From Escherichia coli (GTDB lineage: Bacteria; Pseudomonadota; Gammaproteobacteria; Enterobacterales; Enterobacteriaceae), in assembly GCF_030013205.1 (NCBI RefSeq), contig NZ_CP122648.1: a DNA stretch of 64,000 bases; one strand, 5' to 3'. The position numbers were made by a program. Shown here one piece after another: positions 28,201 to 31,200 of this stretch (position 1 is the stretch's first letter; every line of letters begins with the position of its first letter).

Positions 28201-31200
28201 ATACGTATCAATTTCTCATCTTTTTTGCGAGCTCTTGCAAGCTTTCTTTTCGAGATGCCATACAGGTAATGGGCCACAATCAAAGAATGCTCGTACGGTT
28301 TTCGCTTTTTAAGAAGAGCAAGACAACCTTCAATAATTAATGCATCACTATCTGAACAAGCCTGACGTGTTTTGCTTGTATAGGGAAGAAGCCCTTTAAA
28401 CCCAGCAGCTATAGGAGAATAGTCTACTCCTGAACTATCACTCGCCGCCCATGCTCCCCAACGATCCAGAACCATTTGAATATCACGCATCAACTTTCTC
28501 CACAAAATCAGGCCAGCACGCCAGTTGCCAGCGCACGATCGATAAAACGAAATATCAGCTCCAGCTGGGAGCCATACCTCTCTTCAAATGTCACGGTATC
28601 CGCATGCAGCTCGTCGTGATGCTTTCTGCACAAAGGCAACACAAAAAGGTCATGCGCTTTTGTTCCCATTCCACCCTGACCGTAACCTATCAGGTGGTGG
28701 GGATCATCAGCGGGCTTTCCACAACATGCACACGGCTGTGTCTTAACCCAGCGCGTGTACTTTTCATTAACCCAGCGGCGACGTTTTGGGCGTAACATAA
28801 AAGACTCCGGCGACTCCGGATCCACTTTCAGCGCCAGCACCTTTTTCGCCTTATCCTGGATGATGCTGGTGGCAGGAACCGAAGGCACAAGGTCACTTTC
28901 CCGGGTGACAGACGGCACAACAGGCTTCGGTAATCTCAGTGCCTTACGGGCTGCACTTTCCGGTAAGGCATCCGCCAGGTCATTACGAATCAGCCACCAG
29001 CACAGTTCCGGCATTGTCACAACGTGACTGTCATCAAAACCGAGATCCCGACGCACAACAGACAACACCCAGCGGGCACAGTTATCCGTTGCCATTGATT
29101 CCAGCCGTTCCGTGAACTGATCGCGCAGCTGGTTATCGCAGTGCCAGCACAGACGGATTGCACCCGGAGCGTGTCGCATTGTGGTCATGTTCTCGCTGTG
29201 CCAGTCGGAATGAGGCCACTGGCAGCCTTTTTTACGAAGTAACCAGCTTTCAAGACATTCCACGCCACCAGCACGACGGATCACTGCCTCATTGCGGAAC
29301 ACGGCCCGAACGGCAGGATCATCCGCCAGCGGTTGTGACGCCGCGGGAACGGCACCACTGGCGAAAGATGAATAATGCTCCGGCTCAGGCTCCAGCAGGA
29401 CACGCCCCTGCATAAACAGGGGCATCAGCTCTGAACCGGGCCTGAACAATACGATCCCCATACGCGGGGCAATTTCAGGGGTCAGTAGTGCTCTCACGGT
29501 CACCTCAATGAACGGTATCGAGCAGCTTTAACAGCTCAGGGAATCGGGATTCGAAGAAATGCGGCTGCGTCTCGCGCGGATTTGCGGGACTGGTGATGTT
29601 CTTGCCGAACATGCAGCCTTTCGCTGTCAGCGACCAGAATTTTTTGATGTTGTTAATCGCGGTACGGCTGTATCGTTCGCGTTGTTCAACGATCCCCAGC
29701 TTCGCCATCTGGTGATATGCCTGATTAGCCGTCAGGCGGATACCATACTGTTTCAGCAGTGCACTCAGCGACAGCGTAGGGCGACTTGAGCCATCAGGCG
29801 CGTCAGCAGGAGCATCAATGGCATAGCGCGGTGCCAGATTCGGTAAGCCAACAGCCTCCTGGAGTTTCTGACAGGCACCAAGCACTGAAGAGTTAGACAG
29901 GTTTAACTCCCTGCGCATAAAGTCCAGCAGAATCACTCCAGCCTGCATCTTGTCAGCAGCCTGCCCGGATAATTTTTCCGGTGCGCTGGTTACCATATCG
30001 AAAGTACGGATCACCTTCAGATGGAATGACGGGCTGATCCACATTGCATAGGCATACACCAGTTCTTTGCAGACATACGTCCCCTGGTTATTTCCGCCAT
30101 TAATGACGCTAACTGGTTGATTTTGTTCCAGAGGCGGAATTCCACCCTCGGTGAAAAGTTGTTCAATCAATTCACAGGTTTGCTTATTGGAGAGCCAGTA
30201 TTTCGGGCGGTTTTTTTGTTCTCCCCCGGCTGCCCTGTGCAGATCGTTCAGGCTGTAACGCCCATAAGCATCACGACGAACTTCAATACCATCAATAACC
30301 ATCAGATTATTCATACTTCGTTTCTCCTCTTAATCAGGCGGCTGCACCCGCCGGTTTCTCATACTTACTGATAGTGATCTCGACCTTCCCTTTCGGGATA
30401 ACCGGTCCCCACTCCACCAGCATTCTTTTCACCTGTCTGTCGTCTTCCCACACACCCGCGTGGGTCAGGGCGTCAAACAGCGCCTTGTTATAGTTGTCCA
30501 GATCGCGGATCCGGTTATCCGGAGGAAACAACACGATCTCCACTGAAGCAGGTGCCGACGTTGGTTTCGGCAGACGACGTAACTGCTCAACTATTGCTGC
30601 GCACGCCGCGCTCTGAAATTTTCGCCCCGCCTCGCTTATCAGGCTCTTACCAGCAAATGCCCCTTTGTTGGGGTGTCGCCAGTACGTGTTCACACTGGGC
30701 GGGAAAGGCAGGATCAACTTCATACTTTCAGGCCCCTCTCATGTAACCAGTGGGCTGCACGCAGCCTGGCGTTCTCCTCACCGGCAAGCAGTGCGCGGAT
30801 GATACCGACCGCTTCGCTGTCGTCGTCCTTCACTGCGGTATGAAGCGTTATCCCCCGGGCCACGCCACGCTTTATCGTGATGACGCCTTTTTTCTCCAGT
30901 GCGCGAAGATGCTCCACCGCTGCATTCACCGAACGGTATCCCAGCATGGTTGCCACCTCCTGATTGGTTGGCGGAAAGCCACGCTCTTGCTGGTAAGAAA
31001 TCAGCATATCCAGCACCTGCTGCTGGCATTGAGTTAACGTCGTCATGCCGCCATCTCCCTGACAAGTTTTTCTGCCTGCTGGCGAACCTGCGCCAGAAAC
31101 GCCTCACCACATGCCTCAAGTTCATCGCGCCCGATGTAGCTGATTGCCGGTCCCTTCCAGGTCTTGTCGAAAACAGCAATAGCACCAGCGAAGAAAGCGC

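What the first reader, a model, noticed from the sequence alone, without database searches (positions are those of the whole stretch)
30720..31046. Phage gene encoding a LexA DNA-binding domain without the protease domain
The 108 aa protein aligns along its first ~70 residues with the N-terminal winged HTH of LexA (QQ-V-D-I...G-PPT--E-A--LG-RS-NAAEEHL-AL--KGVI-I--G--RGI-L) but lacks the S24 autoproteolytic domain. The host lexA gene lies only about 4 kb beyond attR in this window. A non-cleavable LexA DNA-binding domain could occupy SOS boxes regardless of RecA activation, or alternatively act as a dominant-negative partner of host LexA. Together with the DinI homolog, this prophage carries two potential SOS modulators.
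Basis: inference. Interest (0 to 1): 0.6.

Follow-up and report, generated by a model that had tools for sequence, protein, structure and literature searches.

The report
Prophage LexA DNA-binding domain without protease
A defective lambda-like prophage of E. coli carries a small, strongly conserved gene that copies only the DNA-binding head of the SOS repressor LexA; the gene is real, very common and already annotated, but I found no experimental study of what it does.

Summary
Window 30720-31046 (minus strand) encodes a 108-aa protein. Residues 1-70 form a complete LexA winged-helix domain (Pfam PF01726, E=3e-19; 43% identical to the host LexA in the same window). There is no S24 protease domain and no conserved cleavage site. 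Residues 75-105 form a two-helix tail that is conserved in the phage family and unrelated to LexA.

The gene is not new. RefSeq calls it "LexA family transcriptional regulator", it matches PHROG 362, and it occurs in 2232 of 5426 complete E. coli genomes and in SfV, SfII, cdtI, mEp460 and Stx2 phages. It is under strong purifying selection (pN/pS 0.05). It sits in a conserved early-gene cassette, Dam-LexA-like-RusA-KilA-N-DUF968-Q, so it is probably made only after the prophage repressor is lost.

Best reading (about 0.45): a RecA-proof LexA mimic that occupies SOS-type operators once host LexA is destroyed. Four of the five LexA base-contact residues are kept. In a sister sub-family the gene lies behind near-consensus SOS boxes, in some loci together with phage DinI or RecA. 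The DNA target and dimerisation remain unproven. The "dominant-negative partner" idea is not supported. The closest characterised analogue is GIL01 gp6, an independent capture.

The parts
30720..31046 (-). LexA-like gene, 108 aa (WP_000210187.1, 'LexA family transcriptional regulator')
   Evidence: ORF; Pfam PF01726 E=3.4e-19; PHROG 362 E=2.6e-59 over the full length; RefSeq annotation; pN/pS 0.049 over 55 alleles
30837..31046 (-). Codons 1-70: LexA-type winged helix-turn-helix. The recognition helix is SVNAAVEHL and the wing is RGI.
   Evidence: Alignments to E. coli LexA; AF2 model pLDDT 78-89; Foldseek rmsd 1.0 A over 66 columns to the 3jso LexA-DNA complex
30732..30824 (-). Codons 75-105: two-helix C-terminal tail (EAVGIIRALLAG / ENARLRAAHWLHERG). 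It is conserved in the phage family and unrelated to LexA. Proposed oligomerisation or partner-binding module.
   Evidence: Family alignments A1 and A2; helices 75-87 and 93-105 at pLDDT 68-76; the profile match to LexA ends at position 75
31043..31696 (-). Phage N-6-adenine methyltransferase (Dam), upstream gene; its stop codon overlaps the LexA-like start (ATGA)
30334..30723 (-). RusA Holliday-junction resolvase, downstream gene; its start codon overlaps the LexA-like stop (ATGA)
28128..30314 (-). Rest of the conserved nin cassette: KilA-N protein (29505..30314), DUF968/HNH protein (28508..29503) and antiterminator Q (about 28128..28493)
   Evidence: the same gene order is seen in SfV, mEp390 and in Cronobacter, Salmonella, Enterobacter and Klebsiella prophages
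33969..33998 (-). Best sigma-70-like promoter (TTGACA-18-TACATT) in the cI-cro intergenic region, the likely pR that drives the operon containing the gene
   Evidence: a consensus match only; cI and cro annotation
10296..10339 (+). Two perfect SOS boxes (CTGTTTATCCATACAG and CTGTATACAAACACAG) overlapping the promoter of the prophage dinI-like gene. These are the only perfect CTGT-N8-ACAG sites inside the prophage and are candidate phage-borne targets.
10355..10603 (+). DinI-like gene (82 aa)
45730..46383 (-). Host lexA gene (45730..46338) and its two SOS boxes (46347-46383)

Best explanation
The gene encodes a RecA-insensitive mimic of LexA's DNA-binding half. A winged-helix domain, probably captured from an enterobacterial lexA gene, is joined to a short helical hairpin that takes the place of LexA's dimerisation and protease domain.

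The gene lies in the delayed-early 'nin' cassette (Dam-LexA-like-RusA-KilA-N-DUF968-Q). It is translationally coupled to its neighbours and sits downstream of pR. It should therefore be silent in the lysogen and made only after the S24-type CI repressor has been cleaved, or after infection.

I propose that the protein oligomerises through the tail and binds CTGT-type (SOS-box-like) operators. It would then re-occupy SOS promoters after host LexA has been destroyed, and RecA* could not remove it. Candidate targets are the prophage's own dinI promoter and host SOS genes.

Shown: domain identity, absence of the protease and cleavage site, gene context, strong purifying selection, and the link between relatives and SOS-box promoters. 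Inferred: expression timing, oligomerisation, the DNA target, and repression as the outcome.
For: The DNA-binding domain is complete and LexA-like. Four of the five helix-3 contact residues listed for E. coli LexA (Ser39, Asn41, Ala42, Glu44, Glu45; PMC3091678) are retained. The wing Arg64-Gly65-Ile66 is invariant.

The protein is closer to E. coli LexA (E=2e-21) than to LexA of Thermotoga (E=3e-6) or to GIL01 gp6 (no significant BLASTP hit).

There is no S24 domain. The AG dipeptide is not conserved in the family.

Selection is strong: pN/pS 0.049 over 55 alleles. Synteny is conserved among homologues only 40-58% identical.

In sub-family B a terminator plus a near-consensus SOS box precedes the unit that holds the LexA-like gene. 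This is seen in Klebsiella, Enterobacter, Salmonella Choleraesuis and locus L098. The unit also carries a phage dinI (L007) or a phage recA (L098). A perfect 8-base core is expected about 0.01 times per 700 nt.

Engineering precedent: a LexA DNA-binding domain fused to any dimerising module represses its operator only when dimeric (PMC7102963).
Against: No binding or expression data exist for this family in the literature I could search.

Glu44 is never kept in the phage family. Glu45 is replaced by Leu, Ile, Thr, Gly or Asp in several clades, including clades that sit behind SOS boxes (notes). Those boxes may therefore serve host LexA only, and specificity may have diverged as it did for gp6.

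The window's own clade has no SOS box upstream of the gene.

AF2 on a linked dimer gave pTM 0.35 and only moderate confidence for the tail, so dimerisation is not supported computationally.

Tail-less 69-84 aa versions also exist.
Confidence: 0.45

Rival explanations
1. A phage-specific regulator whose LexA-derived domain has drifted to a different operator. It would switch a phage promoter on or off rather than act on the SOS regulon, as GIL01 gp6 does when it activates the late promoter P3 at GaCACAnnTGTGaC.
For: gp6 is the precedent (PMC6182141). Recognition-helix positions 44 and 45 vary between clades of the family, as expected for co-evolving phage-specific sites. The gene lies just upstream of Q in every clade.
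Against: No conserved non-SOS palindrome was found near the gene or between Q and the lysis genes. The E. coli clade keeps the S-x-N-A-A-x-E-H-L signature of enterobacterial LexA. Late transcription in these phages already has a dedicated Q antiterminator.
Confidence: 0.3
2. A DNA-targeting accessory of the DNA-metabolism cassette (methyltransferase, RusA resolvase, DUF968 HNH protein) rather than a transcription factor. For example, it might position or restrain a nuclease or resolvase on phage DNA.
For: The gene is invariably linked to RusA and DUF968, often with overlapping stop and start codons, across clades at 40-58% identity. One protein, P0154, fuses a LexA-like domain directly to the DUF968 HNH C-terminus.
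Against: The fusion is a singleton on one contig and may be a deletion artefact. nin regions are gene-dense mosaics in which adjacency is weak evidence. Nothing in the sequence points to an interaction.
Confidence: 0.12
3. A dominant-negative partner or antagonist of host LexA. The protein would bind LexA, or poison its dimers, and so induce SOS.
For: Only the pairwise resemblance of GIIRALLAGE to LexA's [11 protein letters not shown] cleavage-site strand.
Against: The LexA C-terminal dimerisation domain is absent. The resemblance disappears at family level: AG is replaced by AN, ER, TR, SG, DD, AC, AE or AD, and the family profile matches LexA only up to position 75. The tail is predicted helical, not a beta strand.
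Confidence: 0.03
4. A functionless leftover of a truncated lexA copy.
For: The prophage is defective, with truncated terminase and tape-measure genes.
Against: pN/pS is 0.049 over 55 alleles. Length and tail are conserved across genera. The gene is present in viable phages such as SfV, SfII, cdtI, mEp460 and Stx2 phages.
Confidence: 0.02

Closest known systems
E. coli LexA (TIGR00498; PDB 1lea, 1jhh, 3jso)
   Same: The N-terminal winged helix-turn-helix is the same fold. It is 43% identical over 90 residues and keeps Ser39, Asn41, Ala42, Glu45 and the wing RGI.
   Different: There is no S24 Ser-Lys protease or dimerisation domain and no conserved Ala-Gly cleavage site. Glu44 is Val. A two-helix tail unrelated to LexA is present instead. 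The protein scores 70 bits against a curated cut-off of 111.
GIL01 gp6 (Bacillus tectivirus), a truncated LexA homologue that activates late promoter P3 (PMC6182141)
   Same: Both are phage-encoded LexA DNA-binding domains without the protease, encoded among early genes upstream of the late-gene switch.
   Different: gp6 is 66 aa and has no tail. Its recognition helix differs (SHKTAHRYL). It is related to Bacillus LexA, and BLASTP finds no significant match to the window protein. This points to an independent capture. gp6 binds a non-LexA site and activates; the activity of the lambdoid protein is unknown.
PHROG 362 and RefSeq 'LexA family transcriptional regulator' of lambdoid phages (SfV orf42, SfII, cdtI, mEp460, Stx2a and Stx2c phages)
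   Same: This is the same protein at 95-100% identity, in the same Dam-x-RusA position.
   Different: Nothing differs. This is the family the gene belongs to. Its 'transcriptional repressor' label is an annotation only; I found no experiment behind it.
Engineered LexA(1-87) fusions to dimerisation modules (bacterial LexA two-hybrid; LEVI and LexRO light switches, PMC7102963)
   Same: The architecture is a LexA DNA-binding domain plus a small heterologous C-terminal module. Such fusions repress operators when the module dimerises.
   Different: Those fusions are artificial. Whether the natural tail here dimerises is unproven.

Membership tests
LexA repressor proper (TIGR00498 equivalog) | N-terminal LexA-type winged-helix DNA-binding domain | tested here: met
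   PF01726 covers residues 1-65 of the 65-position model, E=3.4e-19; Foldseek rmsd 1.0 A to 3jso
LexA repressor proper (TIGR00498 equivalog) | C-terminal S24 peptidase and dimerisation domain with the Ser119/Lys156 dyad | tested here: not met
   No Peptidase_S24 hit. The protein ends at residue 108 and rusA overlaps its stop codon.
LexA repressor proper (TIGR00498 equivalog) | Conserved Ala-Gly self-cleavage site | tested here: not met
   AG occurs at residues 87-88 in this protein, but the position is not conserved in the family. The profile homology to LexA ends at position 75.
LexA repressor proper (TIGR00498 equivalog) | Score at or above NCBIfam's curated cut-off | tested here: not met
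   70.3 bits against a cut-off of 110.95
LexA repressor proper (TIGR00498 equivalog) | Binds CTGT-N8-ACAG SOS boxes | not testable with these tools
   Four of five helix-3 contact residues are kept; there are no binding data
PHROG 362 (lambdoid-phage LexA-domain proteins) | Full-length match to the family profile | tested here: met
   E=2.6e-59, residues 1-108 against profile positions 1-106 of 106
PHROG 362 (lambdoid-phage LexA-domain proteins) | Position in the nin region between the replication genes and Q, next to RusA | tested here: met
gp6-type truncated LexA homologues of tectiviruses | Phage-encoded LexA DNA-binding domain lacking the protease | tested here: met
gp6-type truncated LexA homologues of tectiviruses | Sequence relationship to gp6, including the Lys38 recognition residue | tested here: not met
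   No BLASTP alignment. The recognition helix differs and the aligned position is not Lys.
gp6-type truncated LexA homologues of tectiviruses | Activates a late promoter at a GaCACAnnTGTGaC-type site | not tested
   No such analysis was done. CTGT-Nx-ACAG and inverted-repeat scans found no conserved site near Q or the late region in the window.

The most novel reading that the evidence does not exclude
About 40% of E. coli genomes, including Stx2-phage lysogens, carry a RecA-proof LexA mimic. During prophage induction it would switch the SOS regulon, and other LexA-controlled elements such as competing prophages, colicins and SOS toxins, back off while RecA is still active.

In the sister sub-family the same protein, together with phage DinI or phage RecA, would form an SOS-triggered feedback module placed directly in front of the late-gene antiterminator Q.
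Probability: 0.3. Interest if true: 0.7.

Novelty: new member of a known kind. Interest (0 to 1): 0.4.

Why it matters
If the protein does bind SOS boxes, induced lambdoid prophages would override the host DNA-damage response from within. That would bear on SOS mutagenesis, on competition between co-resident prophages and on Shiga-toxin phage induction, and the gene is carried by a very large share of E. coli strains.

If it binds a phage-specific site instead, it would be a second, independently evolved case of a phage re-using the LexA head as its own regulator, after GIL01 gp6.

Either way the question is cheap to settle with EMSA, a reporter assay and a deletion in SfV, mEp460 or an Stx2 phage.

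Tried and rejected
1. Cleavage-site mimic. The pairwise alignment extends into LexA's VAAGE loop. I rejected this because AG is not conserved, the family profile stops matching LexA at position 75, and the tail is predicted helical.

2. Single-sequence AF2 gave a poor model (pLDDT 57.6).

3. Linked-dimer AF2 with a 19-sequence alignment gave a confident winged helix but pTM 0.35, so it neither supports nor refutes dimerisation. Foldseek returned only LexA for the head and nothing convincing for the tail.

4. Search for a phage-borne target. CTGT-Nx-ACAG at spacings 0-20 and short inverted repeats in 24-34 kb gave only the dinI boxes and nothing conserved near Q or the gene.

5. The IMG/VR scan returned only 98-100% identical loci. 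It was useful for the selection test but not for diversity.

6. Literature searches for a functional study of the lambdoid protein found none. The library holds open-access papers only, so this is absence of evidence.

7. The LexA-DNA structure paper could not be retrieved. The contact residues are therefore taken from PMC3091678.

8. The LexA-DUF968 fusion P0154 looked like a Rosetta-stone link but is a singleton.
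Full report
**1. What is there**

Window 30720..31046 on the minus strand is an ATG-initiated ORF of 108 codons. A GGGAG Shine-Dalgarno sequence lies 8 nt upstream. Its start codon overlaps the stop codon of the upstream gene in an ATGA, and its stop codon overlaps the start codon of the downstream gene in a second ATGA.

Pfam places the whole 65-position LexA_DNA_bind model (PF01726) on residues 1-65 at E=3.4e-19 and reports no Peptidase_S24 domain. NCBIfam's LexA equivalog matches only residues 1-91, at 70 bits against a curated cut-off of 111.

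The best solved structures are E. coli LexA entries 1lea, 1jhh and 3jso at E~1e-15. The host's own LexA is encoded in the same window at 45730..46338. It is 43% identical over 90 residues, E=2e-21.

An AlphaFold model built with a 19-sequence alignment gives the helix-helix-helix-wing topology at pLDDT 78-89. It superposes on the LexA-DNA complex 3jso at 1.0 A over 66 columns.

The only slip is that NAAEEHL is LexA's own sequence; the phage protein reads NAAVEHL.

**2. Where it sits**

The window is the chromosome of porcine E. coli ETEC4079 or a near-identical strain. A lambdoid prophage is inserted in dusA. Its landmarks are:

- dusA at 8070..9107 and the integrase at 9196..10293
- a 5' dusA remnant near 41.7-41.8 kb that marks the other end
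- host lexA about 3.9 kb beyond that remnant

The prophage is defective. The terminase and tape-measure genes are truncated and the head genes are missing. It still has an S24-type CI, Cro, a replication module and Q.

The LexA-like gene lies in the 'nin' region on the rightward early operon. The order is Dam methyltransferase (31043..31696), LexA-like, RusA (30334..30723), a KilA-N protein, a DUF968/HNH protein and Q. No convincing promoter lies directly upstream. The best sigma-70 match is in the cI-cro intergenic region, the probable pR. The gene should therefore be silent in the lysogen and expressed as a delayed-early gene. This timing is inferred from position, not shown.

The prophage also carries a DinI-like gene (10355..10603). 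Its promoter is overlapped by two perfect SOS boxes (10296-10311 and 10324-10339). These are the only perfect CTGT-N8-ACAG sites inside the prophage.

**3. It is a common, annotated family under strong selection**

- RefSeq names the product WP_000210187.1, 'LexA family transcriptional regulator'.
- It matches PHROG 362 ('transcriptional repressor') end to end at E=2.6e-59.
- tblastn finds it at 95-100% identity in SfV (orf42), SfII, SfIV, cdtI, mEp460 and many Stx2a, Stx2c and Stx2k phages.
- megablast finds it in 2232 of 5426 complete E. coli genomes.
- More distant members (40-66% identity, same length) occur in prophages of Citrobacter, Salmonella, Cronobacter, Klebsiella, Enterobacter, Kosakonia, Leclercia and Hafnia.
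- Among 55 distinct DNA alleles from 80 IMG/VR loci plus the window, pS=0.108 and pN=0.0053, so pN/pS=0.049.

The gene is therefore not a decaying fragment of lexA.

**4. Anatomy beyond the LexA head**

Residues 75-105 form two predicted helices. Their hydrophobic pattern, EAVxxIRALLAxExxARxRAxxWLxxxG, is conserved across the family.

In the pairwise alignment, GIIRALLAGE lines up with LexA's [11 protein letters not shown], the strand that carries the Ala84-Gly85 cleavage site. I tested whether this is a retained cleavage site or a mimic of one. It is not, for three reasons:

- The AG pair is replaced by AN, ER, TR, SG, DD, AC, AE or AD in homologues.
- A profile of the family matches LexA only up to position 75.
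- The segment is predicted helical.

The tail is therefore a separate module. Its obvious candidate role is oligomerisation, because LexA's own dimer interface is in the missing C-terminal domain. A linked-dimer AlphaFold run gave only pTM 0.35 and pLDDT 68-76 for the tail, so that role remains unproven. Tail-less versions (69-84 aa, for example in Edwardsiella phage EPP-1) and tandem double-domain versions also exist.

**5. What DNA might it bind**

The helix-3 residues listed as DNA-contacting in E. coli LexA are Ser39, Asn41, Ala42, Glu44 and Glu45 (PMC3091678). The window protein keeps Ser39, Asn41, Ala42 and Glu45 and has Val at position 44. The wing Arg64-Gly65-Ile66 is invariant.

Across the wider family the picture is mixed. 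Ser39 and Asn41 are invariant or nearly so. Glu44 is never kept. Glu45 is replaced in several clades. The E. coli clade thus looks competent for CTGT-type half-sites, but the family as a whole may not share one specificity.

**6. A link to SOS boxes in relatives**

Gene neighbourhoods split the family into two groups.

Sub-family A includes the window, SfV, mEp390, and Cronobacter and Salmonella prophages. Here the gene directly follows one or two DNA methyltransferase genes and precedes RusA. No SOS box lies upstream.

Sub-family B has a different layout. A terminator-like hairpin and a near-consensus SOS box precede a unit made of orfX (75-96 aa, conserved, no Pfam hit), the LexA-like gene, in three of the four loci a small orfY (66-67 aa; not called in L099), RusA (not called in the Klebsiella loci), DUF968 and Q. 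The four cases are:

| Locus | Host | SOS box | Extra gene behind the box |
|---|---|---|---|
| L007 | Klebsiella | TACTGTTTATTTATACAGTA | phage dinI |
| L015 | Enterobacter | ACCTGTACATTCATACAGTA | none |
| L098 | not identified | TACTGTTTTTATATCCAGTA plus a second, weaker box | 369-aa phage RecA homologue |
| L099 | Salmonella Choleraesuis | TACTGTTTATATATACAGTG | none |

Edwardsiella phage EPP-1 has AACTGTATGTAAATCCAGTA in front of the two-gene unit that ends in its LexA-like gene.

A perfect 8-base core is expected about once per 65 kb, or about 0.01 times per 700-nt upstream region. Its recurrence with different spacer sequences and different companion genes therefore argues for selection.

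This ties the family to the SOS circuit, since it shares a unit with DinI, RecA and SOS boxes. It does not show who binds the boxes. Host LexA certainly could. Autoregulation by the LexA-like protein is an attractive inference, but it is weakened because some of these proteins have lost Glu45.

**7. Mechanism proposed, and its rivals**

My best reading (about 0.45) is a RecA-proof LexA mimic. It would be made once CI is gone. It would oligomerise through the tail and occupy SOS-type operators, namely the phage dinI promoter and host SOS genes, after host LexA has been cleaved.

Engineering work supports the plausibility of this architecture. A LexA DNA-binding domain fused to a heterologous dimerising module represses its operator only in the dimeric state (PMC7102963).

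The main rival (about 0.3) is a regulator with drifted specificity that acts on a phage promoter. GIL01 gp6 is the model: a truncated LexA homologue that activates the late promoter at a non-LexA site (PMC6182141). I found no candidate site for such a role.

A third possibility (about 0.12) is a DNA-targeting accessory for the neighbouring RusA and DUF968 functions. It is suggested only by tight synteny and by a singleton LexA-DUF968 fusion.

A dead remnant is excluded by the selection data.

**8. Comparison with known families, and novelty**

The protein is not a LexA. Three defining features are not met: the S24 domain, the cleavage site and the curated score.

It is a member of PHROG 362 and of the RefSeq 'LexA family transcriptional regulator' group of lambdoid phages.

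It resembles gp6 in kind but is not its relative. BLASTP finds no alignment and the recognition helices differ. It is far closer to enterobacterial LexA, so the two phage groups appear to have captured the LexA head independently.

I found no functional study of the lambdoid family in the searchable literature. That library covers open-access papers and preprints only.

I rate the finding as a new (uncharacterised) member of a known kind. The existence of the gene is already known. Its function is an open and easily testable question. Interest is 0.4.

Noticed in passing
window 10296-10339 and 10355-10603: Two perfect SOS boxes overlap the TTGACA promoter of the prophage DinI-like gene, next to the dusA-type integrase. 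These are the only perfect CTGT-N8-ACAG sites in the prophage.
   Followed up: partly
L007 5385-8243; L015 4507-7413; L098 2511-6804; L099 3561-6195: In a sister sub-family, a terminator plus a near-consensus SOS box precedes a unit of orfX, LexA-like, in most loci a small orfY and RusA, then DUF968 and Q. The box is followed first by a phage dinI in L007, by a phage recA homologue in L098, and by no extra gene in L015 and L099. The late antiterminator Q may therefore be directly SOS-controlled in these prophages.
   Followed up: partly
L023 1444-1463 (and 27 other IMG/VR loci of L016-L095; also L011 1190-1209): An 18-19/20 consensus SOS box, TACTGTTTTTA[CT]ATACAGTA, lies inside the cI-like repressor gene. 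It falls in the linker between the HTH and S24 domains (peptide NTVYKNSN). The box is more conserved than its flanks. This cI allele is not present in the window's prophage.
   Followed up: partly
L005 (SfV) 34170-34189; L013 9310-9329; L099 6739-6758; about 33 of the 80 IMG/VR loci: The SOS-like box TACTGTAAAAATAAACAGTG lies at codons 3-9 of an N6_N4 DNA methyltransferase gene downstream of Q. The methyltransferase could be a LexA-controlled moron.
   Followed up: no
protein P0154: A 240-aa protein joins a LexA-like DNA-binding domain directly to the HNH C-terminus of DUF968. It is a singleton on one contig, so it could be a deletion artefact or a hint of a functional link.
   Followed up: partly
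proteins P0128, P0135, P0141, P0144, P0148, P0156, P0159, P0163, P0164: These proteins carry two LexA DNA-binding domains in tandem and no S24 domain. They look like single-chain pseudo-dimers of the LexA head.
   Followed up: no
window about 20465-22079: The prophage is defective. RefSeq marks the terminase large subunit and the tape-measure gene as truncated and adjacent, so the head-gene block has been deleted.
   Followed up: no
window 40467-41455: A Panacea-domain protein (40883..41455, minus strand) and a small downstream gene sit at the attR end of the prophage. They could be a toxin-antitoxin or defence pair.
   Followed up: no
L007-L010 1-1542: The Klebsiella prophages carry an AAA_15/AAA_21 ATPase plus DUF4435 gene pair upstream of the SOS-box operon. 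The pair resembles a PARIS-like defence system.
   Followed up: no
window about 23058-23633 and 25693-26544: Two morons lie in the late region: an LPS core heptose(II)-phosphate phosphatase and an AraC-family regulator. A tRNA-Gly gene lies near 25.2 kb.
   Followed up: no
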